Positions 1,881-60,679 of a stretch of 64,000 nucleotides of DNA are shown in pieces. The stretch is from a virus. Position 1 is the first letter of the stretch, and each line of letters starts with the position of its first letter. The position numbers and the translations under genes are program-made. The notes beneath the pieces are model-generated. The model had not been told where the DNA came from. It was given only the letters and a program-made list of their open reading frames with translations, and ran no database searches. Location: positions 408,640-472,639 of the IMG/VR virus record IMGVR_UViG_3300046660_000488, one strand, 5' to 3'.

Positions 1881-1903
1881 GTCTGGTTTACCAGACCTTT
1901 TTG
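1881..1903 (+). terminator. Hairpin GTCTGG-TTTA-CCAGAC followed by CTTTTTG; it also carries a copy of the TGGTTTACCA palindrome
   Basis: A perfect 6-bp stem plus a T-run are visible in the sequence. The orientation is antisense to the flanking minus-strand genes. Confidence 0.35.
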
Positions 1904-2130
1904 TCCTTGACGCATTTCGGGCAGAATTGGCGGTCGTCGCGCTTGCTGATCTTCCAGCCGCGCGCTTGGACCTGCCCGACGCATTCGCGTTCGGTCTGTC
2001 CGGTGGCTTGCGCGAAACCGCCGCTGCGGTCGCCGGGGGTGATGGCCGAGCACACGAACAGGCTCTCGCCGCCGGATGACTCCGTGCTGTTGGTGCAGTA
2101 GACGTCGATGGAGTAGCAGCCGACCAGCAT
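1888..2130 (-). CDS. hypothetical small Cys-rich protein (C-terminal CPKC)
   Basis: An 80-aa ORF in the minus-strand early block. Its stop overlaps the start of the upstream gene. Confidence 0.35.
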   Translation of the reverse strand: MLVGCYSIDVYCTNSTESSGGESLFVCSAITPGDRSGGFAQATGQTERECVGQVQARGWKISKRDDRQFCPKCVKDKKVW

Positions 2131-2504
2131 TAGATCAAACGCTCCCCAACCAGCAGCAGGGCATCTTCCCGCGCTTCTTCGATCTCAGCGTCGGACCACG
2201 TGACCTTGCCGGTGATTTCGCAGTCGCCCACGCGCCAGATCACGCCGCAGACGCCCGAACCGGTGACGTACTGGGCTTCCTCGCGGGTGCACCACACCAG
2301 ACGTTTCTTGTCCGGGCCGTGGCGACCGTTGCCAGATTGCTCGTCTTCGAGCCAGATTTCGTAGGAGAAGCGCTCCAAGAACGGAGCGTCGGCGGCAGGC
2401 GCGACCAGATCGGGCAGGGCCTTCATCCAGCCGCTAACCCGGTACGTGCCCGACAGGCTTTCCGAGTTGGTGGAGCGGATGATGTCGCCTACGTCCGGGG
2501 CCAT
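2130..2504 (-). CDS. hypothetical protein
   Basis: A 124-aa ORF with AGGAGA immediately upstream of the ATG. It is preceded by conserved promoter-like element A. Confidence 0.45.
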   Translation of the reverse strand: MAPDVGDIIRSTNSESLSGTYRVSGWMKALPDLVAPAADAPFLERFSYEIWLEDEQSGNGRHGPDKKRLVWCTREEAQYVTGSGVCGVIWRVGDCEITGKVTWSDAEIEEAREDALLLVGERLI

Positions 2505-2529
2505 GTGGTCTCCTGTCGCCGTTGAGAAG

Positions 2530-2565
2530 TGCAGATTAGCACACTCTACTTTGATTGCAAGCGAA
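2530..2565 (-). promoter_or_regulatory. conserved about 32-bp promoter-like element, copy A (TTGCAA-N15/16-CTAATC on minus)
   Basis: The block cagaTTAgCACACTCTACTTtgaTTGCAAGC is shared almost exactly with copy B at 3100..3136. Both copies lie directly upstream of minus-strand gene starts. Confidence 0.4.
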
Positions 2566-2568
2566 TAC

Positions 2569-3030
2569 TTAGACCTGTTGCGGGATGATTGCCTTCATCA
2601 GCTTGGCTTCGAGCCACATCGGGTCGGAGGTGTTGACGCAGACATGCTGTTCCTTGCCTTCGATGACGACGACCGCGCGGAACAGCAGGGTATAGTTGAT
2701 CCGCATGCCGCTCATGCCCGAACCGCCGCCGACGTAGGCTTGGGTGTTCGACATGTTGTTGATGGAGACGTTGAACGTCGAGACGCCGGAGACTTGGACC
2801 TCGTAGGCCGTGTCGATAACGCGCATCATCTGGCGAATCTTCGCCTTGTTGTACTCCGGCAGTTGCTTGCCGTTCCAGCTATCCATGTAGCCGTCGCGCT
2901 TCAGTTTCTTCAGCGTCTTGCGCGTGTGGACCAGCGCGTCGCGCAGCAGGGTCTTGCGATAGTACTTGCCGTCAACCCCGGCCATGGCCATGTCTCGCGA
3001 GACCCGCGTTCCGATGGCGATCTTCGGCAT
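2569..3030 (-). CDS. hypothetical protein (start chosen at MPKIAIGT, downstream of element B)
   Basis: The track ORF is 2569..3147. The upstream part of it overlaps the promoter-like element, so the internal ATG at 3030 was preferred. Confidence 0.4.
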   Translation of the reverse strand: MPKIAIGTRVSRDMAMAGVDGKYYRKTLLRDALVHTRKTLKKLKRDGYMDSWNGKQLPEYNKAKIRQMMRVIDTAYEVQVSGVSTFNVSINNMSNTQAYVGGGSGMSGMRINYTLLFRAVVVIEGKEQHVCVNTSDPMWLEAKLMKAIIPQQV

Positions 3031-3099
3031 CGGGATTTCGTAGACGGGGCCGGTAGGACGATCAGGGTGGGTCAAGCGAGGTCTCCTGCGTTTCAACAA

Positions 3100-3136
3100 G
3101 CACAGACTATCACACTCTACTTGCTTTGCAAGCAGA
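3100..3136 (-). promoter_or_regulatory. conserved promoter-like element, copy B
   Basis: The block cagacTAtCACACTCTACTTgctTTGCAAGC matches copy A. Confidence 0.4.
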
Positions 3137-3162
3137 TTCTGAAGCACAGATGGAGAAAGTTG

Positions 3163-7742: not shown

Positions 7743-7828
7743 GAAATGTCCTAAAAAATGAAGGGGGAGCTTTCTGTTGACAGGCAAGCCCCGAAGGACC
7801 GGCTCCCTAACCCCGGAACCATCACCGC

Positions 7829-8026
7829 TTACGCGGCGACAGCGTAGTCCATGGCAACGTTGTCGTTGGCATTTACAATTGTGAACTGATCGTCGGCCGT
7901 GTCTTGCCGGATATCTCGCAAACCCTTTACCGCCGCGAATCGATGCTGGTCACCCCCACTTAGAAACCCATCGCGGACGATGGGCTTGTATGGTGGAGGT
8001 GCGGGGAATCGCACCCCGGTCTTCAT
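7829..8026 (-). CDS. hypothetical small protein
   Basis: A 65-aa ORF. It is preceded on the minus strand by a CTTAAATAC box and a TGGTAAACCA palindrome. Confidence 0.3.
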   Translation of the reverse strand: MKTGVRFPAPPPYKPIVRDGFLSGGDQHRFAAVKGLRDIRQDTADDQFTIVNANDNVAMDYAVAA

Positions 8027-8091
8027 CGGCTTATTACAGTCTGGTCATCAATATCGTCTGTATTTAAGCATGGTTTACCAAATGGCACAAG

Positions 8092-8556
8092 CTAAATCGA
8101 ATTCTCGTCCATTTTGGTGATCCGCTTGGCGGCCAAGGACTTTTTGCGTTCCTTTTCCGACTGGTGCGCGCGGTACACAATGCACGGACCCATCCAGCCA
8201 TATGGCCCCACGAACAGTGCGGTGATCAGCCACCAGTCTTGGTTTTTAACGAACCACGGGATGTGGTGCGTGACCGTCAGCATGCCCAGCGTACCGAAGA
8301 ACACGAGCAGCAGAAAAGTCGGGCCGAACGTGATGATCTCAGACCTGATCCACCGGCGCCGAGCATCTTGTTCGTCCGGGGTCACCAGCAGACCAAGCTC
8401 GTCTTCCAGCATGGCCTGTCGTTCGGCCATCGCGCAGACCTTCTTGAACCAGTGGCGGTCGTTGATGCCAATGGGGCACGGTCCGGTCTCCGGCGTCCAC
8501 GAGACGAAATCGGCGACGATCTTCTGAGCCCGGTCGGCCACCACGGGTTTCATCGG
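8092..8556 (-). CDS. membrane protein with two predicted TM helices
   Basis: The start at MKPVVADRAQ has its ATG overlapping the serS stop (ATGA). Hydrophobic stretches are IITFGPTFLLLVFFGTLGML and WWLITALFVGPYGWMGPCIVY. Confidence 0.45.
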   Translation of the reverse strand, partial: PMKPVVADRAQKIVADFVSWTPETGPCPIGINDRHWFKKVCAMAERQAMLEDELGLLVTPDEQDARRRWIRSEIITFGPTFLLLVFFGTLGMLTVTHHIPWFVKNQDWWLITALFVGPYGWMGPCIVYRAHQSEKERKKSLAAKRITKMDENSI

Positions 8557-9827
8557 ATGACTTCCAACCCGTTCATGTAGGGTTGCAGGACGCGGGGCAC
8601 GCGGATCGAGCCATCCTCGTTCTGGTAATTCTCCATGACGGCGACCAGCGTGCGGCCGACCGCCAACCCCGAACCGTTGAAGGTCCGCAGGTAACGGTTC
8701 TTGCCACCGTCGCTGGGCTTGTAGCGGGCGTTCATCCGCCGGGATTGGAATTGCCCGAAGTCCGACACGCTCGAAATTTCGCGGTAGGTCTCTTGGCTCG
8801 GAATCCAAACCTCGATGTCGATGGTCTTGGCGGCCGAGAAGCCGGTGTCGCCGCCGCACAGCAGTACCGTGCGGAACGAAAGCTCCAGAGCGCCCAAGAT
8901 GCCTTGGGCGTTGATCAGGATGAAGTTGTGCTCGTTCGCCGTTGCGCTGTCAGTTATCGAGACCAACTCGACCTTGTAGAATTGGTGCTGGCGAATCAGG
9001 CCGCGCGTGTCACGTCCGGCCGAACCCGCCTCGGCGCGGAAGCATGGCGTCAGAGCCACGTAGCGCAGGGGAAGCTGATCCTCGGGGATGATCTTGTCGC
9101 GGACAAGGTTGGTGATCGAAACCTCGGCGGTCGGGATCAGCCAGTGATCCGACTCCGGAATGTGGAACAGGTCGTCCTTGAATTTTGGAAGCTGGCCGGT
9201 CCCGATCAGAGCGTTGGCGTGGACCATCAGCGGAGGATTGACCTCCATGAAGCCGTTCATGGCGTGGCGGTCGAGCATGAATTGGCCAAGCGCCCGTTCG
9301 AGACGCGCCAGCGGACCCTTGGTCACGCAGAACCGGGCGCCGCTCATTTCAGCCGCCGCCTCGAAATCCATCATGCCGAGATTTTCACCCAGCGTGACGT
9401 GGTCCTTGGGTGTGAACGAGAAATTCGGGCGAAGTAATGGGAAGTCAGAGATCACCTTGTTGTGGCTCTCGTCCACGCCGATGGGCACACCAACGTCCAG
9501 CATGTTCGGGATACGCAGCAAGGTTTCTTGAACTTGCTCGTGCAGCTTGCGCTCGTTGGCCGTGGAATCCGAGAGGAAGCCCTTCAGCGCGGTCATCGAC
9601 TCAATCGCCCGCTGGCGCTCGATGCCTTGAAGCGTTGGGATGCGGGCAGATTCCTCGTTGCGCTGCTGAAGCAGGCTTTCGGAATTTTGAATGGCCTTGC
9701 GGTGCTGCTGGTCCAGATCGACCAGCGTGTTGATCAGTACCGAAGCTTCGGCGTGGGTCATCCCCTTCCGGCCAAGCTCGCTGATGACAGCATGCGGGTT
9801 GTCGCGGACGAATTTCAGATCAAGCAT
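8550..9827 (-). CDS. serS: seryl-tRNA synthetase
   Basis: A 425-aa ORF. It has an N-terminal coiled-coil arm and class-II aaRS core motifs (FRAEAGSAGRDTRGLIRQHQF, GSGLAVGRTLVAVMEN). The overall collinearity with SerRS is clear. Confidence 0.85.
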   Translation of the reverse strand: MLDLKFVRDNPHAVISELGRKGMTHAEASVLINTLVDLDQQHRKAIQNSESLLQQRNEESARIPTLQGIERQRAIESMTALKGFLSDSTANERKLHEQVQETLLRIPNMLDVGVPIGVDESHNKVISDFPLLRPNFSFTPKDHVTLGENLGMMDFEAAAEMSGARFCVTKGPLARLERALGQFMLDRHAMNGFMEVNPPLMVHANALIGTGQLPKFKDDLFHIPESDHWLIPTAEVSITNLVRDKIIPEDQLPLRYVALTPCFRAEAGSAGRDTRGLIRQHQFYKVELVSITDSATANEHNFILINAQGILGALELSFRTVLLCGGDTGFSAAKTIDIEVWIPSQETYREISSVSDFGQFQSRRMNARYKPSDGGKNRYLRTFNGSGLAVGRTLVAVMENYQNEDGSIRVPRVLQPYMNGLEVIR

Positions 9828-9830
9828 ATG

Positions 9831-9882
9831 GCCGGGCCTTTTTACGAGGCCCGACCATAGGGATGTGACTAATTTTCGTCAA
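9831..9882 (-). promoter_or_regulatory. serS leader: sigma70-like promoter (TTGACG-N16-TATGGT) plus a 9-bp stem hairpin abutting the start codon
   Basis: On the minus strand: TTGACG (9882..9877) and TATGGT (9860..9855). Next comes GGTCGGGCC-TCGTAAAAA-GGCCCGGCC directly before the ATG. No free SD is visible. Confidence 0.35.
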
Positions 9883-9892
9883 CCAGAATTGC

Positions 9893-10000: not shown

Positions 10001-10209
10001 CCCAGCAAGTGCTCGATGACGCTACCAAAGACCCCGGAGTCGGGATCAGAATTATGTGGTGGATGCGCGTTTCTCGCCTTGACCTCTTCCACTTCATCTG
10101 GAGAGACAAGGACCATCCGGCCGGGGTATTTGAGCCACGTGTGGCCGTCAGCAACCCATAGGGTCTCAGAAACCCAAACCATGCCGTCTTCGTCGGGTTC
10201 CATCATTTC
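9997..10209 (-). CDS. hypothetical small acidic protein
   Basis: The sequence is MEPDEDGMVWVSETLWVADGHTWLKY... Its start overlaps the stop of the 10203..11156 gene. Confidence 0.35.
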   Translation of the reverse strand, partial: EMMEPDEDGMVWVSETLWVADGHTWLKYPGRMVLVSPDEVEEVKARNAHPPHNSDPDSGVFGSVIEHLLG

Positions 10210-11156
10210 AGGCCGACCAGCCAAGCGGCATCGTGCGAAATCCGGGTGTCGAAGATCGAGAATTCCGTGATGGTCTTGGGGACCTCGAAGCCGATGCCAC
10301 GCAGTTGGGTCGCGATGTTCTCACAGCTTCCCTTGAACCTTTCGTACGTGCCGTCGTATTTCCGGTAGGTGACCATCATGACGTAGGTGTCGTCGCTGAT
10401 TTTCTTGAAGGCATTCCGTGAGACGTGGGCGTCGAGATCGTAGGCGGCGGCGCGAAGGCCTTCGATCCGGTCGTCGCTGACCACCACGTTGAAGTGGGCC
10501 TCAAAATAGCACGCCGGGGGCATCGCCTGACGACTGTGGCTATTGGACGGAGCCGCCGGATGCCACGGAACAGTCTCGATTTTCTGGCGGGCCACGTTAT
10601 AGCCGCGTTCGACCAGATCATCCTTGATCCGGCTCACTTCAAGGAACGCCGAGCGGTTGTCGCCCATGTGGACCGACGAGGTCTGGGCGTCGAGCATAAC
10701 GGTCTCGCCATGTTGGTTGTGCAGGTCGATCAGCAGCGGCTTGACGCCGATCTCCGCGCAGTCGGCCTTGTACTGCTCGATGTTCAGGCCACCCTCGCCC
10801 GGCGAGACGGTGACGTGGATTTCGTAGGGGAGCGGGTAGGTGACGTCGCGCTCGCGGGTCTGAAGTTCGTCCCAGTACTGGGCCTTCTTCATCATCATCG
10901 ACCCGATGTCGTCGTGGCTGTAGCCCAACTGGTAGGCGACACTCAGCGCGCAGAGGATGACGTCGGCCGTCTCTTCAAGGATGCGCTCGGAGGTGACGAA
11001 CCGGTGGGTCGTGGTCGGCACGTTGTCGAAGGGCAGGACGGCCTTGGCCAGTTCGCCGACTTCTTCAGCCGTCTTCAGGGCCTTTTCGGTCAGGGTCTTC
11101 TTATCCTTGGCGGACAGCGCGGCGATATAGTCGAAAATCTCGGGTTTCATGACCAC
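10203..11156 (-). CDS. MazG-like nucleotide pyrophosphohydrolase domain protein with an unknown C-terminal domain
   Basis: The N-terminus EEVGELAKAVL...ILEETADVILCALSVAYQLG resembles the all-alpha MazG/NTP-PPase fold. Confidence 0.45.
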   Translation of the reverse strand: MVMKPEIFDYIAALSAKDKKTLTEKALKTAEEVGELAKAVLPFDNVPTTTHRFVTSERILEETADVILCALSVAYQLGYSHDDIGSMMMKKAQYWDELQTRERDVTYPLPYEIHVTVSPGEGGLNIEQYKADCAEIGVKPLLIDLHNQHGETVMLDAQTSSVHMGDNRSAFLEVSRIKDDLVERGYNVARQKIETVPWHPAAPSNSHSRQAMPPACYFEAHFNVVVSDDRIEGLRAAAYDLDAHVSRNAFKKISDDTYVMMVTYRKYDGTYERFKGSCENIATQLRGIGFEVPKTITEFSIFDTRISHDAAWLVGLK

Positions 11157-11428
11157 CTCAATTTGAAAAGTGTGAATTTACTCAAATCGTCTGAACTGAA
11201 TTCAATAGTTGTGTCTTGCATCATGCGAAACTGGTCTGTGTACGTATAGTACACTGCATGATACTTGAAGTTGTTCTCTTCGGACCATTCTTTGAATTCT
11301 TCGGTGAGTTCAAGCTTGACGCCGAGTTCTGTCGTAATGGACAGGCCATTGGCGCGATGAACCGGAGCGGCAACCAGCGTCGCTACGTCCGGGCCAACTT
11401 TCATCCTGAATTTTCCGCGAACGCTCAT
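11147..11428 (-). CDS. hypothetical protein
   Basis: A 93-aa ORF. A TTGGTTTACCAA palindrome lies 16-27 nt upstream. Confidence 0.4.
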   Translation of the reverse strand: MSVRGKFRMKVGPDVATLVAAPVHRANGLSITTELGVKLELTEEFKEWSEENNFKYHAVYYTYTDQFRMMQDTTIEFSSDDLSKFTLFKLRWS

Positions 11429-11482
11429 CGGCCGGGTCCTATTTGGTTTACCAACCTACCCCGACCGGAAATTAGCGCGCAA

Positions 11483-22290: not shown

Positions 22291-22357
22291 CCACATTTTT
22301 GGTTTGCCAGTTCAAAACTGGCTGGCTATGATCCGCCCACTCGTTTGAGGTGCGTGC

Positions 22358-28266: not shown

Positions 28267-28353
28267 GGGTTGCTACCACAATTTGGTTGACCGAAACGCA
28301 AATTGCCCGTATGAGTCCGGCATTGGATCAACGATCTCGGAGACCCGTCCGCC

Positions 28354-30115: not shown

Positions 30116-30118
30116 CCC

Positions 30119-30916: not shown

Positions 30917-30917
30917 C

Positions 30918-31142: not shown

Positions 31143-31159
31143 TTTTCGTTTACCAGATT

Positions 31160-33088
31160 TTGGTTTACCACAATGGTATGGCCATGGTACTCGATGGAGA
31201 GTTATTAACCATCGAGGCTTCTATGCCGCATTTCCTTCAAACCATTCTCGGTTTCTGGTGGGTTCTGCCCATCCTGCTGGCCATCATTTTCTGGCCGATC
31301 ACATTCCGCCTGTTCGGGGTCATCCTCGTTCCGCAGGACAAGATCGGCATCGTCACCAAGAAATTCCGTCTGATCGGTGAAGACATCCGCCTGCCGGACG
31401 GCGCCCTCGTGGCTCTGAAGGGTGAAGCTGGCATTCAGGCCGACTGTCTCGCACCCGGCCTGCACCTCTGGTATTGGCCGTGGCAGTACGACATCAACCT
31501 GTCGCCCTTCACGACGATCAAGGAAGGCCATGTCGGCATCGTCGAGGCCAATGACGGTCTGCCCATCCAAGTCGGCCGGGTTCTGGCCCGCACGGTCAAG
31601 GAAGCCGACTCGTTCCAAGACGCGCGCGCCTTCCTGACCAACGGCGGCCAGCGCGGTCCTCAGATCGACGCCATCCGCCCCGGCACGTACCGGATCAACA
31701 CGGCGCTGTTCTCCATCCGCGTCGTCCCGGCCACGCAGATTCCGGAAAACAAGGTCGGCCTCGTCACCACCTACGACGGCACGTCTCTGCCGACCGGCGA
31801 CATCGCGGGTCCGGAAGTCACGGGCCACCACAGCTTCCAAGACGGCCAAGCCTTCATCGGCGCGGGCGGCTACAAGGGTCGCCAAGAGCAGGTCATTCTG
31901 GCCGGTACGTACTACCACAATCCGAACTTCGTTTCGGTTGAGTTGGTCGATCTGGTGAGCGTGCCCATCGGTTACGTCGGCGTCGTCAACGCCTTCGTCG
32001 GCAAGATTCCGCTCGACAAGGAAGTCAGCGATATCCACGCCAACATCGTGCAGCGCGGCTTCAAGGGCGTGTGGGACAAGGCGCTCGATCCGGGCAAGTA
32101 CCCGATGAACACCTACACCCATAAGGTGGAAATGGTCCCGACCACGAACATCGTGCTCAACTGGGCGGGCGCCAAGACCGAGAGCCACGCTCTCGACCGC
32201 AACCTCTCGACCATCACGGTGCGTTCGGCGGATGGTTTCTCGTTCAACCTCGACGTCTCGCAGATCATCCACATCGCTCCGGATGACGCTTCGAAGGTCA
32301 TCGCCCGCTTCGGCTCGATGCAAAACCTCGTCACGCAGGTTCTGGAACCGCTGATCGGCAACTACTTCCGCAACTCGGCTCAGGCCTCCGACATCATCCA
32401 ATTCCTGTCGGGCCGCGCTGAAGAGCAGAAGAAGGCCAAGGAGTGCATCGACGCGGCGATCACCGCCTACGCCGTGCAGTCCGTGGACACCCTGATCGGC
32501 GACATCGTGCCACCGGAGGAACTGATGAAGACCCTGACCGACCGGAAGGTCGCTCAGCAACGCATCGAAACCTTCAAGCAGCAGGAAGCCTCGGAAGTGG
32601 CCCGCCAGTCGCTGGAAGAGTCCAAGTCGAAGGCTGACACCCAAGGTCGCGTCGTTGACGCCCAGCGGGCCGTGGAAGTGGCCGAACTGGACGCCAAGGC
32701 GAAGGTCAAGAAGGCCAGCGGTGACGCTGAGTCCAAGACCATCAACGCCAAGGCTGACGCCGAGGTTCTGACCATGGTCGGTGAAGCGACGGCGGCCCAG
32801 AAACTGGCGGTCGGTAACGCCGAAGCCACGGTTCTGCAAGCCAAGGTCGAAGCGGTCGGCAAGGAAGCCTACGCCCAGATGCAAATCTTCGGCGATCTGG
32901 CGGTCAACAAGACCCAACTGGTTCCTCTCGTCCAAGCCGGTGGCAATGGCGAGGGCGGTGGCTCTCTGATCGACGCCATGTTGGGCGCCCTGCTGGCCAA
33001 GGAAGTTGGCGGTGACACGACCAAGCAGGAGATCGCGCGTCTCCAGCGCCTGTCGGGCATCACGCCTCCGGGCGGCAAGTCCGAGTAA
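31160..33088 (+). CDS. flotillin-like SPFH/band-7 membrane protein (the start may be at 31205)
   Basis: There is an N-terminal TM segment (ILGFWWVLPILLAIIFWPITF) and a long SPFH-like core. The C-terminus is a coiled-coil with flotillin-type Ala/Glu/Lys repeats (AEVAELDAKAKVKKASGDAESKTINAKADAEV...). Confidence 0.65.
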   Translation: MVYHNGMAMVLDGELLTIEASMPHFLQTILGFWWVLPILLAIIFWPITFRLFGVILVPQDKIGIVTKKFRLIGEDIRLPDGALVALKGEAGIQADCLAPGLHLWYWPWQYDINLSPFTTIKEGHVGIVEANDGLPIQVGRVLARTVKEADSFQDARAFLTNGGQRGPQIDAIRPGTYRINTALFSIRVVPATQIPENKVGLVTTYDGTSLPTGDIAGPEVTGHHSFQDGQAFIGAGGYKGRQEQVILAGTYYHNPNFVSVELVDLVSVPIGYVGVVNAFVGKIPLDKEVSDIHANIVQRGFKGVWDKALDPGKYPMNTYTHKVEMVPTTNIVLNWAGAKTESHALDRNLSTITVRSADGFSFNLDVSQIIHIAPDDASKVIARFGSMQNLVTQVLEPLIGNYFRNSAQASDIIQFLSGRAEEQKKAKECIDAAITAYAVQSVDTLIGDIVPPEELMKTLTDRKVAQQRIETFKQQEASEVARQSLEESKSKADTQGRVVDAQRAVEVAELDAKAKVKKASGDAESKTINAKADAEVLTMVGEATAAQKLAVGNAEATVLQAKVEAVGKEAYAQMQIFGDLAVNKTQLVPLVQAGGNGEGGGSLIDAMLGALLAKEVGGDTTKQEIARLQRLSGITPPGGKSE

Positions 33089-33108
33089 TCGGGCCTGACT
33101 GAACGCGA

Positions 33109-33139: not shown

Positions 33140-33636
33140 TAGCTGAACCGCAGTTTGAAATAGGTCTGGTCAGTCTCATTCTCCAAGATGGTCACGAACC
33201 GGTTCTTGCTCGCGTCGGCCACGAAAAATCGCCAGTCGCCCTTGGTGAATTCGTTGCACCACATGATGATCTCGTCGTCACCACCCTCCACAACGACCCT
33301 GTAGGCCCGTGGACCGGCCTGTTCGCACATGTAGACCAGCATGTCCCGTTGGTCTCTCACGACGTCCACGGCCTCTATGAGGGCGTTGAACGAGTTGAAG
33401 CCTTTGCGGACGATGCCGTTGTAGTGTTTTTCGAGATCGTTCCAGTCATCGACTGAAATGTGGGTCGAGTTCAAACGCCCCATGATCTCGTAGAATTTCT
33501 CCTGATATTTCTTGGTGTGATAGGCTGGCGAGCCTTGCAGGTCACTCAGGGACGACGGGTGAGCGAACCATTGCTCCCACGGAACGTCGTAAACGATCAC
33601 GCTGCTCTCCGAACGAAAATCAAGGGATAAATACAT
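33139..33636 (-). CDS. hypothetical protein
   Basis: The start was chosen at MYLSLDFRSE. A GGAG SD is adjacent. Confidence 0.4.
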   Translation of the reverse strand: MYLSLDFRSESSVIVYDVPWEQWFAHPSSLSDLQGSPAYHTKKYQEKFYEIMGRLNSTHISVDDWNDLEKHYNGIVRKGFNSFNALIEAVDVVRDQRDMLVYMCEQAGPRAYRVVVEGGDDEIIMWCNEFTKGDWRFFVADASKNRFVTILENETDQTYFKLRFS

Positions 33637-46921: not shown

Positions 46922-46941
46922 GGGTCACTCTCGCTGTTGGA

Positions 46942-49424: not shown

Positions 49425-50477
49425 TCAATCATGTGGGGATTGTAACCCCTGCACCGCCGAACGGGCACGATCATCTACGATCTCGATTTCCATCCTGTTT
49501 CGTCAACCGGTCGTCCAGAACCGATGCTCGAAGCATCAGAGACCCATCACCACTGACCACCCGCATTGCGCGGGTGACGGGGATTGAACCCGCCGGTCTC
49601 ATTCTTTTCGATCCTTGTACTTCGGACCCATAAACGACCGATTGACGGAACAGGATAGAATGTCTTGAACTTTGCATGTAACCAAATCTCGACTATCGCC
49701 GCAGTGTTGCACACCGCGTGGGACTGTCTCCCACTGTTCTCCGTCCAAAAGCTGGCAATACGCCGCCCTCGCATCAAGCAGGGCGTGGGGCATTCTCCCA
49801 CTGCAAATCGGTTAGAACCTGCCCTATTCCGCTCCCGCTGTGCGGGAGGTGGTCATCACCACTGAATTGGTTACAAGCAAAATCCAAGTTGTTGTTGATG
49901 CGAGACCGCCGACCATCTGCACAAGCCCGAAGGCGGCATGATCGTTCGGCGGTCTCGCCTCACCACGTCTCACAATGTCAAAGAACCCTTCCGAGGAAGG
50001 TGTCAGTGGGTTGCCCCGCCAACGTTTGAACCGTATACTTGAGTGCCAAGTTGAAGTCAAGCACTCATTTCGAATTTCGTGAAGGTTTCTTTCCCACCTA
50101 CAAAGTCAGCCTTTCGGCAGTTGCTTCTAAACGCCCAGCCCCGCGCTTCTTAGGGTCGAAACCCTCCACGTCACCCGAAGGTGAAAGGCTTATCCAACTG
50201 GCAGATTCAAACCGTCCCAACCCGTGTCGGACCTTGCGGGCAATTATTGAGACGTACCGGGCCTGCTGATCCAAGTGGGAACACAGGAGGCATCCGCTTT
50301 ATCCCAGACCGGATTATTCTGGTCAACGAGAAAACGACGGCCCCGACGCGAATGCACGAGTGAGGGGTGTCGAACCCCCACAGACCGCTTTCGGTTCCCG
50401 TTCTGCCTGCTGGTCGGCCCGGCATAATAGGTACTACGATCACCCGTGCATTCACGACGAGGCCGTCGCTTCGAAGA

Positions 50478-50756
50478 TTAGGGGACGACGCCGTCCTTGT
50501 ACAGGTTGCGGTCCACACTGATGTAGATCGCTTCCCAGCCCGCGTCGCGCGCCAGCGTGACCATGGCGTTGAAGATGCCGTCGCTGACCGGGCCGCTGGC
50601 GCGATGCTCGACGAACTTCCGCCACGCCTTGGTCGCATCGGTCGAGACCGCCAGCGACGCCGCTTCGAGATCGACGCGCGGCTTGCCCATGGCCGGAACC
50701 GTCCGGCCAATGATGTAGGCCGACGTCCAGTCCGGCTTGGTGACCTCGTCGGTCAT
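50478..50756 (-). CDS. hypothetical protein
   Basis: A 92-aa ORF. Confidence 0.4.
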   Translation of the reverse strand: MTDEVTKPDWTSAYIIGRTVPAMGKPRVDLEAASLAVSTDATKAWRKFVEHRASGPVSDGIFNAMVTLARDAGWEAIYISVDRNLYKDGVVP

Positions 50757-53366: not shown

Positions 53367-53427
53367 GGTGGGCCTCGTGATACACACCAGCCTACCTCCG
53401 CATTGGGAATTTCGTCAACCAGATTCG

Positions 53428-53435
53428 CTAAATAC
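53428..53435 (+). promoter_or_regulatory. late-promoter-like box CTAAATAC abutting the first effector-island operon
   Basis: The box ends 4 nt before ATG 53440. There is no SD, which implies a leaderless or near-leaderless transcript. Confidence 0.45.
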
Positions 53436-53439
53436 GCCC

Positions 53440-54081
53440 ATGCGTGATTTGATCAGCCTCATGGAAAACTACATCGCTGAATGGGGCGATGAAGACGAAG
53501 ATGATCTCGATGGCGAAGGCCATTGGGGAGACGACGATGAAGCGGAAGATGAGCACGATGATCCGACTGAATATCGGACCAACGGCTATGACTTCGGCCG
53601 TCTGGGAAATTTCTATCACCAAGTGGTGGCGGCGGCCGACAGCCAGATGGATTCCGGATCGGAGATCGAGTTTTCCGATGTCCAGAATTGGGTCGAACAT
53701 CACGCTGAACTCTTCCAGCAAGGTACGATCACCGTCTTCCGCACCATGCGGCTACAGCATGGCGTCGTCGAGGCGCTGAAGGCTGGCACGGAGCTTGGCT
53801 CGCACTGGACCTACGAATTTGACGAAAGCGCTCTCGATGCCTTCGACATCAATGGTCAGGACGGTGGAACACTCTACACCTTCGCCGCGACGATCCACAC
53901 CGGGCAGGTCGCCTTCCCGCTGACCGTCGCCTACAACTGCCTCTTCCCAGAAGAGAAAGAAATCTACCCGTTTGGCCATGCGTCGCTGACGCTCATCGGG
54001 ATTTACGAGACCGAAGACATGGAAAACCCGCAGCGGGTGAACCTGCGTCCCGATCTGGTCGGTAAGGAATTTCCAATCTGA
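53440..54081 (+). CDS. effector-island protein 1 (shared N-terminal peptide MRDLISLMEN; acidic linker; unknown domain)
   Basis: The N-terminus is MRDLISLMENY. An acidic stretch follows: DEDEDDLDGEGHWGDDDEAEDEHDD. Confidence 0.55.
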   Translation: MRDLISLMENYIAEWGDEDEDDLDGEGHWGDDDEAEDEHDDPTEYRTNGYDFGRLGNFYHQVVAAADSQMDSGSEIEFSDVQNWVEHHAELFQQGTITVFRTMRLQHGVVEALKAGTELGSHWTYEFDESALDAFDINGQDGGTLYTFAATIHTGQVAFPLTVAYNCLFPEEKEIYPFGHASLTLIGIYETEDMENPQRVNLRPDLVGKEFPI

Positions 54082-55292
54082 TGCGCGAGTTCATCCAAAT
54101 CCTTCGTGAATCCTACCTCACCGATCAGATCAAGCTGGACGACAAGCTTGTCGCCGCCGTCAAGGCGCGCTTGATGAAGGGATCGTTCTACGATTACGAC
54201 ATGCCCTCGGATGAAAGCGAGTTTTTCGACGACGTCGAGGCCGCTTATCACAAGGTGCTCTGGAACACGCTGTTCAAGGACAATGCGGTAACGATCTATC
54301 GCGCCGAGCTTCGGCCGCGCGGTCGCAACTTCGGGTCCGTTGGCATCTATTGGTCGTTCCGCCCGGAAGGGGCTCAGGCGATCTATGGGCACGACCATGG
54401 CCCGGAAATCCACGGCGGCGCGGCACTGCGCGAAATCGTGTTCATGGCGTCGGCGCCGATCACGTCGGTCGATTGGATCGCCACGTTCGCGGCCAACATC
54501 GCCATGCCGAAAGAGCTTGAAATCACGCTCAAGAACAACGCGCCGTTGACCTTGGAGCAAGCGGTCGTCGGCAACCGTAAGACCACGCTGAACATCAAGT
54601 CGTTCGCCAGCAACATCACGCAGTACGACATGATGGAGACGCCGGTCAACGAAGTCGAGATCGGTGGTGGCGTCGAAGTTTCGGACCTCGACGACGATCC
54701 GGGCCACGACTACACGAACAAGCAACGCGATCTCTTCCGCGACACCCCGGCCGGTGAGCCGGAGCTTCCGCAGGGCTACAAGCTGGTCAACCGCGTCGGT
54801 GATTTCTGGGTCGCGCAGTGCCTGAAGAACATGGACCAGCACAGTGTCATGTACGTGTTCATCAAGGATGGCGCGGAGAATGCGGCTGGCTACATCGCCG
54901 CCCATAAGTGGCACATCGACAAGCTGAACTATCGTCACGAAAACATCTACCAGCCCATGTTGGGTGGCAAGGGTCTTCGGGTCGGCGCGGTGTACGTGCG
55001 CGAGCAGTATCGTGGCTCTGACCTGTCCTTGGTGATGTACAAGTGGATGCTGGAGAACGTCTGCGATTACCTGATGGCCGACAGCTTGCAGACCATGGGC
55101 GGCGTCAAGATTTGGAAGAAACTCCAAAGCCGCAAGCCGTTCCACGTCGAGGTCTGGAATGGCAATCAGGACACGACCCGCAAGCACCGTCGCGGCAAAG
55201 ACTTCGACCGCGTCTACGACAACGGCTACATGATCCCTTGGGTCACCATCGACAGCAAGTTGGACATCGTCCACTCCGATCCGTACGAGTAA
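54081..55292 (+). CDS. effector-island protein 2 (N-terminus MREFIQILRE; C-terminal GNAT acetyltransferase)
   Basis: The C-terminus VGAVYVREQYRGSDLSLVMYKWMLENV is GNAT-like. The ATG overlaps the upstream stop (TGATG). Confidence 0.55.
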   Translation: MREFIQILRESYLTDQIKLDDKLVAAVKARLMKGSFYDYDMPSDESEFFDDVEAAYHKVLWNTLFKDNAVTIYRAELRPRGRNFGSVGIYWSFRPEGAQAIYGHDHGPEIHGGAALREIVFMASAPITSVDWIATFAANIAMPKELEITLKNNAPLTLEQAVVGNRKTTLNIKSFASNITQYDMMETPVNEVEIGGGVEVSDLDDDPGHDYTNKQRDLFRDTPAGEPELPQGYKLVNRVGDFWVAQCLKNMDQHSVMYVFIKDGAENAAGYIAAHKWHIDKLNYRHENIYQPMLGGKGLRVGAVYVREQYRGSDLSLVMYKWMLENVCDYLMADSLQTMGGVKIWKKLQSRKPFHVEVWNGNQDTTRKHRRGKDFDRVYDNGYMIPWVTIDSKLDIVHSDPYE

Positions 55293-58062: not shown

Positions 58063-58254
58063 CTATCCATTGATGACGCGGACGTACACGGCTCGAAGAC
58101 GTCCGCTGGAGGTCATCTTTACGCGGAAAGTCACCACCTGTCCTTCGGAGTAGCACTTGCCTTTGCCGATGAGAAAAATGGGTCCGCCACCATCGGACGG
58201 GGTGATCATCCCGAAACCGCGAGAGTCTTTGAACCACTTGATTTGCCCGAACAT
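58063..58254 (-). CDS. cold-shock protein (CspA family)
   Basis: MFGQIKWFKDSRGFGMITPSDGGGPIF carries the RNP1-like KGFGFI motif. Confidence 0.65.
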   Translation of the reverse strand: MFGQIKWFKDSRGFGMITPSDGGGPIFLIGKGKCYSEGQVVTFRVKMTSSGRLRAVYVRVING

Positions 58255-58316
58255 GCGCGGGCCGGGGAGCGTAGGGGTCATCCCATCAGCCTACCAAATC
58301 TGGTAAACGAAACCCA

Positions 58317-58324
58317 CTAAATAC
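58317..58324 (+). promoter_or_regulatory. late-promoter-like box CTAAATAC
   Basis: The box ends 4 nt before ATG 58329. Confidence 0.45.
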
Positions 58325-58328: not shown

Positions 58329-58694
58329 ATGCGTTGGAACGAGATCATCACCGAAAGTGAAGTGCCGTGGGTCGATAATGCGACCAACACGTTGAGCGTC
58401 GGATCGACGACGCTGGAATTTGACCTGTATCGCAACGACGTGCAGATCAAAGACCTCGACACGCCGGTCGCCGACCGTGGTCAGGGCCAAGCACGCAAGG
58501 CCATGCTGATGCTGGCCGCCAAAGCCGATCAGGTCGGTGCCAAGATTTCGCTGCTGTCCTACCCGCAGGATGAAGTCACAAAGCAGGGACAGTTGAACAA
58601 ATTCTATCGCTCGCTTGGCTATAAGGCCATCCGCAAGTACCCGGACGGCGACGTGCTGATGGTTCGTCAGCCGAAAACGCCAAAAGGCGCTTGA
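58329..58694 (+). CDS. effector-island protein 4 (N-terminus MRWNEIITES; small GNAT acetyltransferase)
   Basis: VADRGQGQARKAMLMLAAKADQVGAKISLL...KFYRSLGYK. Confidence 0.55.
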   Translation: MRWNEIITESEVPWVDNATNTLSVGSTTLEFDLYRNDVQIKDLDTPVADRGQGQARKAMLMLAAKADQVGAKISLLSYPQDEVTKQGQLNKFYRSLGYKAIRKYPDGDVLMVRQPKTPKGA

Positions 58695-59002
58695 CACTCA
58701 GGCCGCGTATGGTAGTGTGCGTTTCTCACTGAAGTAGGTGAGCGGACTGCTCCACCTCGGTGGAGAACATGCACCATTAACCGCCGCCTCGTCGCCGGAA
58801 GAATGATCGGTAGTTCCTTTGGGCTATGCCTCACGGCAACGATCTTTGGAAGGTTTGGACAAGACGAGGCTGTAGTGACGCTGCGAAAGCAGAGAGTAGC
58901 CGCACCAAACCCGGCTAGGCGGGACGTCATATCGTGACATCGGAAGGCTGTCTGATCCAGAGGTCAGACGGCGCGGTCCACAAGCTGAACACGACAGCAG
59001 GA

Positions 59003-59031
59003 AGGGCGGGGAGCAATCTCCGCCTTTTTTC
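59003..59031 (+). terminator. rho-independent terminator ending a roughly 330-nt non-coding stretch
   Basis: GGCGG-ggagcaatct-CCGCC followed by TTTTTTCTATTT. Confidence 0.45.
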
Positions 59032-59464
59032 TATTTGGCTGTCTTCTGTAGAGTGCGCGCATGAGCCAGACCGCCACACCTCCGTCTGAATACCTGCCCA
59101 GAACCGCCGTGGAAGCGCTCGTGCGCGCCAATGCGAATGGACACACGCCGGAGCGCGCTCAAGGCGCCGAGCACTGGCGGTGCAGCACCTGCGGCTATGT
59201 CGCCTCGCAAGTTCGCTGGTGGCCGATCACTTGCGAGGCCACGTCCACGTCCTCCGCGTGAAATAATGGAAGAACGGTCGGTCGAAGGCGATGTTCACCA
59301 AGCCTTTGCCCAGAATTTTCAACAGCAGCCACCGCGTGTCGAGTGACATGCGGCCGGTAAATGGTTTTCCGAAGGCGATGCAACGAACGCTGTGAAAGAT
59401 CACGCGCCATTCGTTCTTACTGATAGCTCTCATCAGCAACCTGTGCTGTATCAAGAGCAAACCG

Positions 59465-59746
59465 TCAAGAGTCGATAGCCCACCAAATCGCTTCGTCGGA
59501 CTCGCGATCCTCGACCGTGGGGTCATCGTGGAAGCCGATGATGTTCTTCTGCTTCATGCGCGTCGGGAAATAGACGCAGCCGCACGACGAGCAGATGTTC
59601 GCATCGGTGATCACCGGGATGATGTCGGGTGCGACTTCCGCAATTTCGGAAAGCTGAGAGTGGTGGATTTTGGCCTGACGGTTCAACGTCGGGCGCTCGC
59701 AGTTACGATTAGGGCAGGGCTTGTTCTGCTTCGAGCGGTGGGCCAT
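59465..59746 (-). CDS. hypothetical Cys-rich protein
   Basis: A 93-aa ORF with CPNRNCE...CSSCGC. Confidence 0.35.
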   Translation of the reverse strand: MAHRSKQNKPCPNRNCERPTLNRQAKIHHSQLSEIAEVAPDIIPVITDANICSSCGCVYFPTRMKQKNIIGFHDDPTVEDRESDEAIWWAIDS

Positions 59747-59761
59747 GATCGTATTTATGGA

Positions 59762-59769
59762 CTAAATAT
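59762..59769 (+). promoter_or_regulatory. late-promoter-like box CTAAATAT
   Basis: The box ends 4 nt before ATG 59774. Confidence 0.45.
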
Positions 59770-59773
59770 TGCC

Positions 59774-60640
59774 ATGCGCGAGTACATCAACATCGTAGAA
59801 TCCAACACCTATCCCATCAAGGGTGGAACGGTTCAGGTCGTGACCCGAGAACTGCGGGGCAATCGCTACAGCTTCACGGCCACGGTCGATGGACAGCGAG
59901 CCGCCATCGGTGAATTCCAAGCGCAAGACTCGATGAATGGCGACAAGGGATCGGTGGAAGAGATCACTGTCGCTGCGGCGTTCCGGCGCCGTGGGATCGC
60001 CTCGGCGATCTACAGCCATTTCGAGAAGATGGGCTTCACCGTTGTTCCATCCGATGATGTCCGGCCGGATGGCCAAGCGTTTTGGAAGAGCCGTCCGCTG
60101 ACGGAGTTGTCGCGGCCGGTCTTCATAGATGAAGTCGATCCGATCTTGAAGAAAGCCGGGTGGACCCGCGTCGGCTCTGGCTACTATGCCTCCGTCTACG
60201 CCAAGGAAGGCGTGAACTACGTCCTCAAGCTGTTCAGCAATCACGACAAAGGCTACATCGATTTCCTGAAGCTTGTTCAGCAGCATCCGAACAAGCACTT
60301 CCCCACGCTCCGTGGCCTGCCGCGTCGGATCACGTCGGGATACACGGCGGTCCGCATGGAGAAACTTCTGCCAGCCGGTTATGGTGACGACGTGCCAAGC
60401 CTTGGCGTCTACCTGCTCTGCCGCGACACCGGTCCCTATGCCAAGAACCAGTATCAGGTGAAGGCCTACGAGCACGTGGTGGAATATCTCCAGAGCCAGC
60501 CGGAACTGAAACGCGCCCTCGACTTGATCATCGACAATCTGCTTCCCAAATACAACGAAGACCTGCACAGTGAGAATTTCATGAAGCGCGCTGACGGAAC
60601 GCTGGTCATCATCGACCCGGTCGGTTTCGTTCGGAAATAG
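59774..60640 (+). CDS. effector-island protein 5 (N-terminus MREYINIVES; GNAT acetyltransferase fused to a protein-kinase-like/aminoglycoside-phosphotransferase-like domain)
   Basis: The GNAT part is EEITVAAAFRRRGIASAIYSHFEKMGF. The kinase-like part has a G-loop WTRVGSGYYASVYAKEG, a Lys in VLKLF, and a catalytic-loop-like LHSENFMKRADGTLVIIDPVGF. Confidence 0.55.
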   Translation: MREYINIVESNTYPIKGGTVQVVTRELRGNRYSFTATVDGQRAAIGEFQAQDSMNGDKGSVEEITVAAAFRRRGIASAIYSHFEKMGFTVVPSDDVRPDGQAFWKSRPLTELSRPVFIDEVDPILKKAGWTRVGSGYYASVYAKEGVNYVLKLFSNHDKGYIDFLKLVQQHPNKHFPTLRGLPRRITSGYTAVRMEKLLPAGYGDDVPSLGVYLLCRDTGPYAKNQYQVKAYEHVVEYLQSQPELKRALDLIIDNLLPKYNEDLHSENFMKRADGTLVIIDPVGFVRK

Positions 60641-60679
60641 GCAGGTTGACCGGTCGAGGCTATGTGGTAAACCAACGCC

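What the first reader, a model, noticed from the sequence alone, without database searches (positions are those of the whole stretch)
1881..60674. Recurrent palindromic TGGTTTACCA / TTTTCGTYAACCAGA motif in intergenic regions
The inverted repeat TGGT-TT-ACCA or a close variant occurs at eight or more intergenic sites. It occurs as GTCTGGTTTACCAGAC (1881..1896), TGGTTTACCA (8071..8080), TTGGTTTACCAA (11444..11455, 16-27 nt upstream of a start) and TGGTTTGCCA (22300..22309). It occurs as CGTTTACCAGA and TGGTTTACCA (31147..31170, immediately before the flotillin-like gene). The other copies are TGGTAAACCA (60665..60674) and TGGTAAACGA (58301..58310). A related extended motif TAATTTTCGT(C/T)AACCAGA occurs at 9868..9885, in the serS promoter where it supplies the -35 TTGACG on the minus strand. 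The extended motif also occurs at 31143..31157 and at 53408..53423 upstream of coaE. The coaE and csp upstream regions additionally share CAGCCTACC. This looks like an operator for a phage or host dimeric DNA-binding protein. Possibly it marks a middle-class promoter.
Basis: seen in the sequence. Interest (0 to 1): 0.55.

Follow-up and report, generated by a model that had tools for sequence, protein, structure and literature searches.

The report
Palindromic promoter box of jumbo phage
A 10-bp near-palindrome (T-S-G-T, two central bases, A-C-S-A) really does recur next to gene starts in this uncultivated ~578-kb T4-related jumbo phage: copies with a TTGAC core are the -35 boxes of its sigma70-type promoters, and the TTTAC copies look most like binding sites for an unidentified dimeric regulator, so this is an ordinary kind of phage control signal in a new phage.

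Summary
TGGTTTACCA with up to 1 mismatch occurs 8 times against 1.4 expected. The wider family TSGT(TT/AA)ACSA occurs 12 times in 73.4 kb (window plus a 10-kb extension) against 0.27 expected. Every copy lies in or at the edge of an intergenic gap, 5-65 nt from a start codon or RNA 5' end.

The window is part of a jumbo myophage related to Sinorhizobium phage Phosso and Agrobacterium phage Atu_ph07, not a bacterium. The motif splits in two.

(1) TG-centred copies (serS, coaE, post-TerL, tRNA region) and TGGTTTGCCA at 22300 all point at the gene. They carry a -10 15-18 nt downstream. Two are conserved at orthologous positions in relatives. These are -35 boxes. In four related phages they sit inside an almost invariant 14-bp dyad, TYTSGT-TG-ACSARA, which Phosso's GGTTGAC promoters lack.

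(2) TT-centred copies occur in both orientations, at positions from about -39 to -6 relative to promoters. They never have T at the would-be -7.

Best reading (about 0.4): an operator for a dimeric regulator that overlaps core promoter elements. Main rival (about 0.25): a separate, directional promoter class. A MotA-like box at fixed distance, a terminator, a GntR-type site and a GTWWAC methylation site are rejected.

The parts
1881..1896 (.). 16-bp perfect dyad GTCTGGTTTACCAGAC (TT-centred box at 1884-1893). On the minus strand it reads TGGTAAACCA-N14-TAAAAT-N6-ATG(1857) of the TPR gene.
   Evidence: It is also flagged as a weak terminator-like hairpin on the + strand, but terminator-like hits are not above shuffles (13 vs 13.1).
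8071..8080 (.). TT-centred box inside the 17-nt spacer of the tmRNA promoter. Minus strand: TTGTGC-cattTGGTAAACCAtgc-TTAAAT-N6-G(8055).
   Evidence: The Rfam alignment puts the tmRNA body start at 8055 and aligns CTTAAATA with the family's upstream UAUAUU.
9876..9885 (-). TG-centred box TGGTTGACGA, the -35 box of the serS promoter. TTGACG 9882-9877, N17, TATGGT 9859-9854, ATG 9827.
11444..11453 (.). TT-centred box. Minus strand: TGGTAAACCA-N15-ATG(11428). The downstream 93-aa ORF has weak coding signal (GC3 0.55).
22300..22309 (+). TGGTTTGCCA, a -35 box. TTGCCA 22304-22309, N17, TATGAT 22327-22332. It lies upstream of the zinc-finger ORF 22358-22645.
   Evidence: The orthologous TCGTTTGCCA-N16/18-TAAGGT follows the NUDIX gene in L001 and L002.
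28284..28293 (+). TGGTTGACCG, a -35 box after the terminase gene. TTGACC-N17-TATGAG, next gene ATG 28354.
   Evidence: Orthologous TCGTTGACCG with TGGTATTTT / TGGTAATCT -10 regions follows TerL in L001 (11627) and L002 (11641).
31146..31170 (+). Tandem pair TCGTTTACCA (31146-31155) and TGGTTTACCA (31161-31170) in the 35-nt gap before the SPFH/Band_7 gene. The proximal box is 7 nt before in-frame ATG 31178. The true start is uncertain (31178, 31184 or 31223).
33587..33596 (.). TCGTAAACGA (perfect arms) between divergent genes, 30 nt upstream of late-type ATAAATA (33627) of gene 33662-35332.
50320..50329 (-). TG-centred box (minus strand TCGTTGACCA-N18-TAAAGC) pointing into the ORF-poor tRNA-like region 46921-50478.
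   Evidence: weakest -10 of the set
53389..53434 (.). Divergent promoter module. Minus strand: TGGTTGACGA (53421-53412), N17, TAGGCT (53394-53389), then coaE ATG 53366 with a GAGG Shine-Dalgarno. Plus strand: the same box, N6, CTAAATA (53428-53434), N5, ATG 53440.
   Evidence: The same module occurs in relatives at L001 1958 and L090 18958.
58288..58323 (.). TT-centred box 58301-58310 midway between two divergent starts. Minus strand: TCGTTTACCA-N7-TAGGCT-N6-ATG(58281), csp. Plus strand: TGGTAAACGA-N6-CTAAATA-N5-ATG(58329).
60646..60674 (+). TTGACC (60646-60651), N16, then TGGTAAACCA (60665-60674), N5, ATG 60680. Here the box occupies the extended -10 position of a promoter for a leaderless gene.
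   Evidence: A twin arrangement, TTGCCA-N17-TAAACC-N6-ATG, lies just outside the window at L083 13775-13784.

Best explanation
The motif is a dyad-symmetric recognition box, T-S-G-T / two central bases / A-C-S-A. It is built into or placed next to the core promoters of a set of auxiliary genes of a T4-related jumbo phage: serS, tmRNA, csp, coaE, SPFH, a TPR protein and small ORFans.

Shown:
- The box is non-random and confined to promoter regions.
- TG-centred copies are the -35 boxes of sigma70-type promoters. They always face the gene and have a -10 15-18 nt downstream. Two are conserved at orthologous sites.
- In this sub-clade the TG-centred copies are embedded in a 14-bp mirror-symmetric consensus, TYTSGT-TG-ACSARA.

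Inferred:
- The symmetry reflects binding of a dimeric, sequence-specific DNA-binding protein. It is probably phage-encoded.
- The TT-centred copies (TGGTTTACCA) are operator-only versions of the site. Their central G-to-T change removes the TTGAC -35.
- They lie over the -35, the spacer, the -10 or just upstream of the start of other promoters, including T4-late-type CTAAATA promoters of leaderless genes.
- The protein would therefore act mainly by promoter occlusion (repression or timing). It might also assist RNA polymerase at the -35-centred copies, as a temporal switch regulator would.
For: 1. Enrichment and placement.

2. Phage identity and T4-type logic:
- TerL is 57% identical to Phosso/Atu_ph07.
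- Tail sheath and terminase domains are present.
- CTAAATA occurs 16 times in intergenic DNA and 0 times in coding DNA. It matches the Aeh1 late promoter.
- The T4 early -35 is GTTTAC, or GTTGAC in RB49/RB43/Aeh1 (PMC1524935).

3. TG-centred boxes face their gene in 16 of 16 intergenic cases in phages A-D. All have a TAnnnT or TGnGAnnCT -10 region 15-18 nt downstream. The post-NUDIX and post-TerL copies are conserved in L001 and L002.

4. Symmetry. In those 16 boxes the flanks are T 16/16, Y 16/16 | TSGTTGACS(A 12/16) | R 16/16, A 15/16. In 21 Phosso GGTTGAC promoters the mirrored positions are complementary in only 1-6 of 21. Four TTGACA-type promoters in the window lack the arms. RNA polymerase therefore does not need the arms.

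5. TT-centred boxes (14 in A, B and C):
- Both orientations occur relative to the gene.
- The distance to the start is 5-65 nt.
- The position relative to a -10 or late element ranges from about -39 to -6.
- There is no -10 at -35-type spacing for the reversed copies.
- The would-be -7 base is C or G in 14/14, whereas 13 of 15 credible -10s in the clade have T there. They are therefore poor sigma70 -10 elements.

6. The closest relative (80% protein identity) keeps the 25-nt block around the box at ext 72660 unchanged next to a 29-nt indel.
Against: - No binding protein is identified, and no experiment exists.
- GT..AC symmetry is already intrinsic to the T4-type -35 box GTTTAC. Only the outer positions add independent evidence for a dimer.
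- TT-centred boxes show no symmetry beyond the 10-mer. Flank complementarity is 2-4 of 14.
- Single TT boxes all read TGGTAAACCA towards the gene (8 of 8 non-divergent loci in A, B and C). The exceptions are two tandem pairs. This hints at a directional element. The grouping was chosen after seeing the data; counting every box gives 8 against 4, which is not significant.
- At 60665 and L083 13775 the box sits exactly where an extended -10 is expected after a -35. The clade uses TGGTAnnnT -10 regions.
- Only 73 kb of a 578-kb genome was available.
Confidence: 0.4

Rival explanations
1. TGGTAAACCA is the core element of a separate, directional promoter class ('middle' or a second late-like class). 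It would be read by a phage sigma-like factor or by modified RNA polymerase, in the way the T4 late TATAAATA is read by gp55. Transcripts would start about 6 nt downstream. The dyad look would be incidental.
For: - The 10 bp are rigidly conserved, as in T4 late and middle boxes.
- Single boxes read TGGTAAACCA towards the gene in 8 of 8 non-divergent loci.
- TGGTAAACCA-N5-ATG occurs twice, with the same 3' spacing as CTAAATA-N5-ATG.
- It shares a TAAA core with the late CTAAATA.
- Boxes often sit just upstream of a late-type element, as tandem promoters of different classes do in T4.
Against: - Four boxes (31146, 31161, 70411, 70459) face the other way.
- Three AAA-oriented copies start TC rather than TG.
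- A single-strand-read -10-type element gives no reason for arm symmetry.
- It also does not explain the mirror-symmetric flanks of the TG-centred relatives.
- No extra sigma or gp55 homologue was found in the 73 kb examined. That is a small fraction of the genome.
Confidence: 0.25
2. There is no extra factor. All copies are ordinary host sigma70 promoter elements of T4/Phosso type. They act as -35 boxes (GTTGAC/GTTTAC) when forward and as extended -10 regions (TGGTAnnnn) when reversed. The palindrome would be a by-product of both elements beginning with TGGT.
For: - GGTTGAC is the top intergenic 7-mer in Phosso. It has 21 forward GGTTGACN-N15-17-TAnnnT promoters in 100 kb.
- The T4 early -35 is GTTTAC.
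- Relatives use TGGTATTTT / TGGTAATCT as -10 regions.
- At 60665, TTGACC-N16-TAAACC.
Against: - The would-be -7 is never T (0 of 14), against 13 of 15 in credible -10s.
- Only 2 of 10 reversed boxes have a -35 partner.
- 31161, 70411 and the csp-side reading are left unexplained.
- Invariant outer dyad positions are absent in Phosso.
- Window promoters with consensus TTGACA lack the arms.
Confidence: 0.12
3. The box is a site for a host transcription factor that the phage has copied to plug its auxiliary genes into a host regulon.
For: - The flanked genes are host-like (serS, tmRNA, csp, coaE, SPFH).
- The box resembles GntR-type TNGT..ACNA palindromes.
Against: - The host is unknown, so this cannot be checked.
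- A 2-bp spacer is not the GntR/FadR 3-bp form, and there are no TGGTNNNACCA copies.
- The same dyad frames the -35 of promoters in four phages from different samples.
- No literature hit for the sequence.
Confidence: 0.08
4. The copies are relics of duplicated promoter cassettes (like PeSL mobile regulatory cassettes of T4-type phages), an RNA hairpin or terminator, or GTWWAC methylation sites. In none of these would the 10-mer as such have a function.
For: - Sub-families share longer strings: TAATTTTCGTYWACCAGA at 9870 and 31140; GGTTTCGTTTACCA at 58301 and ext 70411; CAGCCTACC...CTAAATACG at 53388 and 58287.
- Boxes flank accessory genes that are absent from relatives.
- 1881-1896 is hairpin-like.
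Against: - Sequence between the shared blocks is unrelated, so selection keeps the blocks.
- A 4-bp stem with a 2-nt loop cannot fold, and both orientations occur in mRNA sense.
- Terminator-like hits are at shuffle level.
- GTATAC and GTTAAC together number 6 against 17 for GTTTAC/GTAAAC, and the flanks are conserved. This does not fit a GTWWAC methylation site.
Confidence: 0.05

Closest known systems
T4-type early promoter -35 box (GTTTAC at -36..-31; GTTGAC in RB49, RB43, Aeh1; PMC1524935)
   Same: - Same core hexamer, with G two bases before TTGAC/TTTAC.
- Found upstream of early or auxiliary genes and tRNA genes.
- The phage also uses the Aeh1-type late promoter CTAAATA.
- TG-centred copies have the right orientation and -10 spacing.
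   Different: - The upstream flank is T-rich, not the A-rich UP-like tract of T4.
- The box is extended to a 10-14-bp dyad.
- Most TTTAC-centred copies face away from the gene or lack a -10 at the right distance.
   Same: - Closest cultured relative by TerL (57% identity).
- GGTTGAC -35 with the same G-G prefix.
- Extended -10.
- All copies forward.
   Different: - No right arm and no mirror-symmetric flanks.
- The dyad family occurs only twice in 100 kb, both inside genes.
T4 MotA box of middle promoters ((a/t)(a/t)(a/t)TGCTTtA, 11-13 bp upstream of the -10)
   Same: A phage-specific box replacing or overlapping the -35 in a T4-related phage.
   Different: - The MotA box is asymmetric, bound by a monomer, and at a fixed distance.
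- Here the box is a dyad.
- TT copies vary from 2 to 18 nt from the -10.
Multi-site phage repressor regulons: P1 C1 operators, mycobacteriophage L5 gp71 'stoperators', phi29 p4 sites (from my own knowledge)
   Same: - One short site is repeated many times in short intergenic gaps across a phage genome.
- The site overlaps promoters at varied positions.
- p4-like proteins repress some promoters and activate others.
   Different: - The P1 and L5 sites are asymmetric.
- In L5 the sites are orientation-dependent and belong to temperate phages.
- No repressor gene is identified here.
GntR/FadR-family operators (TNGT-N3-ACNA; e.g. FadR CTGGT-N3-ACCAG; from my own knowledge)
   Same: Same arm letters (TGGT/ACCA; CTGGT..ACCAG at 1881-1896).
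   Different: The spacer here is 2 bp. No copy with a 3-bp spacer exists in the window.

Membership tests
T4-type sigma70 early promoter | -35 core GTT(T/G)AC | tested here: met
   All boxes contain GTTTAC, GTTGAC or GTTTGC.
T4-type sigma70 early promoter | -10 (TAnnnT) 16-18 nt downstream of the -35 hexamer, with the box facing the gene | tested here: inconclusive
   Met for all TG-centred boxes, for 22300, and weakly for 31146 and ext 70459. Not met for 1884, 8071, 11444, 31161, 58301, 60665, ext 66325, 70411 and 72660.
T4-type sigma70 early promoter | A-rich UP-like tract at -40..-44 | tested here: not met
   The upstream flank is T-rich (T 16/16 at the second base upstream).
Operator of a dimeric DNA-binding protein | Inverted-repeat half-sites conserved on both sides | tested here: met
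   TSGT/ACSA is present in all copies. In TG-centred copies from four phages it extends to TYTSGT/ACSARA, and this extension is absent in Phosso. Caveat: the inner GT/AC is shared with the T4 -35 box.
Operator of a dimeric DNA-binding protein | Function independent of orientation and tolerant of position within promoter regions | tested here: inconclusive
   Both orientations occur, and positions range from about -39 to -6. However, single boxes are AAA-to-gene in 8 of 8 loci.
Operator of a dimeric DNA-binding protein | A cognate binding protein | not testable with these tools
   The candidates are only weakly DNA-binding-like: 45148-45381 (HTH hits at E 0.01-0.02) and 22358-22645 (PF24623 zinc finger, E 9e-9). 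No orthologues were found in the fetched loci of relatives.
T4 MotA-type middle promoter | Activator box at a fixed 11-13 bp from the -10 | tested here: not met
   Spacings to the nearest -10 or late element are 2, 3, 6, 7, 7, 7, 14 and 16-18 nt.
Intrinsic terminator / RNA hairpin | Stable GC-rich stem followed by a U-tract | tested here: not met
   Only 1881-1896 is flagged, on the antisense strand. The total of hits equals the shuffle expectation.
GntR/FadR-type operator | TNGT-N3-ACNA spacing | tested here: not met
   There are 0 TGGTNNNACCA against 5 TGGTNNACCA.
GTWWAC methyltransferase target | All four GTWWAC variants used and flanks free | tested here: not met
   GTTTAC/GTAAAC number 17 against 6 for GTATAC plus GTTAAC. 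The flanks T-S and S-A are conserved.

The most novel reading that the evidence does not exclude
Atu_ph07/Phosso-related jumbo phages of this high-GC sub-clade encode a dimeric temporal-switch regulator. Its dyad, TYTSGT-NN-ACSARA, is fused to the -35 of one promoter class. Its TT-centred, promoter-dead version is scattered over the -10 and start regions of other genes, many of them leaderless. The regulator would then take the place of the AsiA/MotA early-to-middle switch of T4. It would co-ordinate a regulon of translation-related auxiliary genes (tmRNA, serS, csp).
Probability: 0.2. Interest if true: 0.6.

Novelty: new member of a known kind. Interest (0 to 1): 0.38.

Why it matters
Transcriptional programmes of the very large T4-related jumbo phages of alphaproteobacteria are almost unstudied. 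No middle-mode regulator is known outside close T4 relatives. This analysis gives a concrete three-part promoter grammar for one such phage:
- TTGACA-type and dyad-boxed sigma70 promoters;
- a CTAAATA late promoter placed for leaderless mRNAs;
- a TGGTTTACCA box.

It also names a short, testable DNA probe for fishing out the regulator. If the box is an operator, it defines a regulon of phage-borne translation and stress genes. If not, it is simply part of the promoter consensus. Either way it improves annotation, but it does not overturn anything.

Tried and rejected
- Host-chromosome or prophage reading: rejected. Tail sheath, terminase, phage relatives and a 578-kb source contig say otherwise.
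- ECF-type (-35 AAC / -10 CGT), sigma54, CtrA, LexA, Fis and IHF consensus matches were checked by eye against the aligned sites. None fits consistently.
- Reversed boxes as -35 elements of antisense promoters: no TAnnnT at 14-18 nt.
- MotA-like fixed spacing: rejected.
- RNA-level element (Shine-Dalgarno-like or hairpin): both orientations occur in mRNA sense, and the stem is too short.
- The search for related loci with single proteins (54081-55292, SerS) found nothing useful.
- The metagenome scan for CTAAATAnnnCCATGCGnGAnnnnATCA found 0 matches, so the source contig is not in that collection.
- Left-edge genes and P0004 are not on record, so the genome could be extended only 10 kb to the right, via L083.
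- P0002's locus is a structural region of an unrelated phage.
- The 163-aa protein has no match in GenBank phages.
- Literature searches for the 10-mer returned only primers.
- The PA5oct paper reports only TTGAC/TATAATA promoters.
- Pfam and PHROG scans of the genes downstream of the boxes gave no regulator.

Full report
**What the window is**

The 64-kb window (GC about 59%) is not a bacterial chromosome. It encodes:
- a 978-aa tail sheath and a T4-type large terminase;
- its own SerS;
- an alpha-type two-piece tmRNA at 7763-8099, minus strand;
- CoaE, a cold-shock protein and a GH16 enzyme;
- PTH2;
- an SPFH/Band_7 protein.

TerL is 57% identical to that of Sinorhizobium phage Phosso (469 kb) and 56% to Agrobacterium phage Atu_ph07. 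IMG/VR relatives are 415-607-kb contigs, the best at 75% TerL identity. An identical protein sits on a 578,292-bp JGI contig. A Logan contig let me extend the window by 10 kb to the right (L083). I call the window plus this extension 'ext' (73.4 kb). I call the window phage A. Its relatives are B (L001, L088), C (L090, GCA_040384025.1 contig) and D (L002).

**Observation**

- TGGTTTACCA with <=1 mismatch occurs 8 times against 1.41 expected.
- All five TGGTNNACCA have a TT/AA centre. Other spacers are not enriched.
- Allowing C or G at positions 2 and 9 gives 12 copies of TSGT(TT|AA)ACSA in ext against 0.27 expected.
- Nine of those are strictly intergenic against 0.05 expected. Three touch a gene boundary. 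None is deep in an ORF.
- All lie 5-65 nt from a start codon or RNA 5' end.

**Context: the phage's promoter grammar**

The strongest intergenic word is not this motif but CTAAATA, at 16 intergenic and 0 coding. This is the late-promoter sequence described for the T4-like phage Aeh1. T4 early promoters carry GTTTAC at -36..-31, with G at -33 in RB49, RB43 and Aeh1 (PMC1524935). Many CTAAATA copies lie exactly 5 nt before ATG, which predicts leaderless mRNAs. The window also holds plain sigma70-type promoters such as TTGACA-N16-TATGAT at 3543(-), 55778(+), 58034(-) and 58691(+).

**Two sub-classes of the motif**

(1) TG-centred boxes, T[CG]GTTGAC[CG][AG].
- In A these are at 9876 (serS), 53412 (coaE), 28284 (after TerL) and 50320 (tRNA-like region). 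TGGTTTGCCA at 22300 belongs with them.
- All face the downstream gene and have a -10 15-18 nt after the 10-mer: TATGGT, TAGGCT, TATGAG, TATGAT.
- The post-NUDIX and post-TerL boxes are kept at the orthologous positions in B and D, with their own -10 regions.
- Across A-D, 16 of 16 intergenic TG-centred boxes are forward.
- In the cultured relative Phosso, the top intergenic 7-mer of the early region is GGTTGAC. There are 21 GGTTGACN-N15-17-TAnnnT promoters in 100 kb, all forward.
- The shared CAGCCTACC is simply the minus-strand -10 TAGGCT of the coaE and csp promoters.

- There are 12 in ext, one in B (L088 793) and one in C (L090 13765).
- They occur in both orientations relative to the gene.
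- They take many positions:
  - over the -35 region of TAAAAT-N6-ATG at the TPR gene (1884);
  - inside the 17-nt spacer of the tmRNA promoter, whose TTAAAT predicts a start at 8055, the first base of the Rfam tmRNA body;
  - 7 nt upstream of TAGGCT (csp), and 6 nt upstream of CTAAATA at gene 58329;
  - at the extended -10 position after a proper -35 (60665, and L083 13775);
  - 7 nt before ATG (31161, and L083 17861).
- Reversed copies have no -10 at -35-type spacing.
- Read as a -10, the hexamer TAAAC[CG] never has T at -7 (0 of 14). In contrast, 13 of 15 credible -10s in the clade do.

**Evidence for a dimeric binding protein**

In the 16 TG-centred boxes of A-D the flanks are mirror images:
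- T 16/16 and Y 16/16 upstream;
- R 16/16 and A 15/16 downstream;
- together this gives TYTSGT-TG-ACSARA.

In 21 Phosso promoters the mirrored positions are complementary in only 1-6 of 21. The window's TTGACA promoters lack the arms, so RNA polymerase does not require them.

A recurring divergent module supports this. A late (C/A)TAAATA lies 4-7 nt from the box on one strand. On the other strand the box is followed by N15-17 and a -10. The module appears in A (53412), B (L001 1958) and C (L090 18958) with different flanking genes.

The central G-to-T change in the TT copies would destroy the TTGAC -35 while keeping the arms. This fits 'operator-only' sites and explains why TG copies are always forward while TT copies need not be.

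**Caveats**

- GT..AC symmetry is intrinsic to the T4 -35 box.
- TT copies show no symmetry beyond 10 bp.
- Single TT boxes read TGGTAAACCA towards the gene in 8 of 8 non-divergent loci. The four exceptions are two tandem pairs. The grouping was made after seeing the data; the count is 8 against 4 if all boxes are counted.
- Relatives use TGGTAnnnT as the -10 region.
- A directional promoter class read by a dedicated factor therefore remains a serious rival.
- No regulator could be named. 45148-45381 has only sub-threshold HTH hits, 22358-22645 is a phage zinc-finger ORF, and neither has orthologues in the fetched relatives.

**Rejected readings**

- MotA-type fixed spacing.
- Terminator or hairpin: only 1881-1896 is flagged, and hits are at shuffle level.
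- GntR-type 3-bp spacer.
- GTWWAC methylation target.
- ECF, sigma54 and CtrA-type consensus sequences.

**Verdict**

This is a real, non-random, promoter-embedded box. Part of it (the TG-centred copies) is explained with good confidence as the -35 region of sigma70-type promoters of this phage clade. The palindromic TT-centred copies are best read, at about 0.4, as operators for a dimeric regulator. A separate promoter class comes second at about 0.25. It is a new member of a known kind of phage control element, and of moderate interest.

Noticed in passing
window 321, 6543, 13538, 24421, 26573, 38639, 39118, 42419, 43803, 53428, 57005, 58317, 59762, 61433, 61460, 63887 (plus ATAAATA copies): CTAAATA is the dominant intergenic word, at 16 intergenic and 0 coding. 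It precedes structural genes (sheath, TerL) and matches the Aeh1-type T4 late promoter. At least eight copies are CTAAATA-N5-ATG, which puts the predicted start on the A of ATG, so many genes are probably leaderless.
   Followed up: partly
window 53440, 59774, 61472, 63899 (also L083 19227 minus strand, L090 ~18941 minus strand): Otherwise unrelated proteins (no BLASTP paralogy) share the N-terminus M-R-[DE]-x-I-[NS]-[IL]. They also share the DNA string CTAAATAnnnCCATGCGnGAnnnnATCA. This could be a conserved signal peptide, or a translation-start requirement of leaderless mRNAs.
   Followed up: partly
window 46921-50478: A 3.5-kb stretch has no convincing ORF. It gives only weak or odd tRNA hits: 48393-48459 and 49361-49420 just above the Rfam threshold, and an ARAGORN 'tRNA-???' at 48791-48860. 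It may be a degenerate or unusual tRNA array. In one Logan gene-call set a 277-aa ORF is called here.
   Followed up: partly
window 7763-8099 (-), 8550-9827 (-), 44607-44960 (+), 58063-58281 (-): The phage carries a set of translation-rescue and translation genes: an alpha-type two-piece (permuted) tmRNA, SerS, a PTH2 peptidyl-tRNA hydrolase and a cold-shock protein. A phage-borne permuted tmRNA is unusual.
   Followed up: partly
window 53389-53440; L001 1930-2010; L090 18941-18996: A divergent promoter module is conserved in three phages with different flanking genes. On one strand there is a late-type (C/A)TAAATA with N5-ATG. 4-7 nt away lies the dyad box, which serves as the -35 for a -10 plus N6-ATG (leaderless) on the other strand.
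   Followed up: partly
window 61892-62551; L083 18646-19227: There are two ART-PolyVal ADP-ribosyltransferase genes, next to an acetyltransferase and a possible kinase. They may be Alt/Mod-like modifiers of host RNA polymerase, which is relevant to the T4-style GTTTAC promoters.
   Followed up: no
window 11147-11428 (-): The 93-aa ORF directly downstream of the 11444 box has GC3 of 0.55 and 46% GC, against about 0.8 GC3 for its neighbours. It is either a recent acquisition or not a gene. In the second case the box is 288 nt from the next gene (10203-11156, MazG-like).
   Followed up: partly
window 29129-33600 and 22358-22645: The SPFH block and the zinc-finger ORF have no counterparts at the syntenic positions of relatives L001 and L002. 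Motif boxes sit at the borders of these insertions, which recalls the promoter-bearing mobile cassettes of T4-type phages.
   Followed up: no
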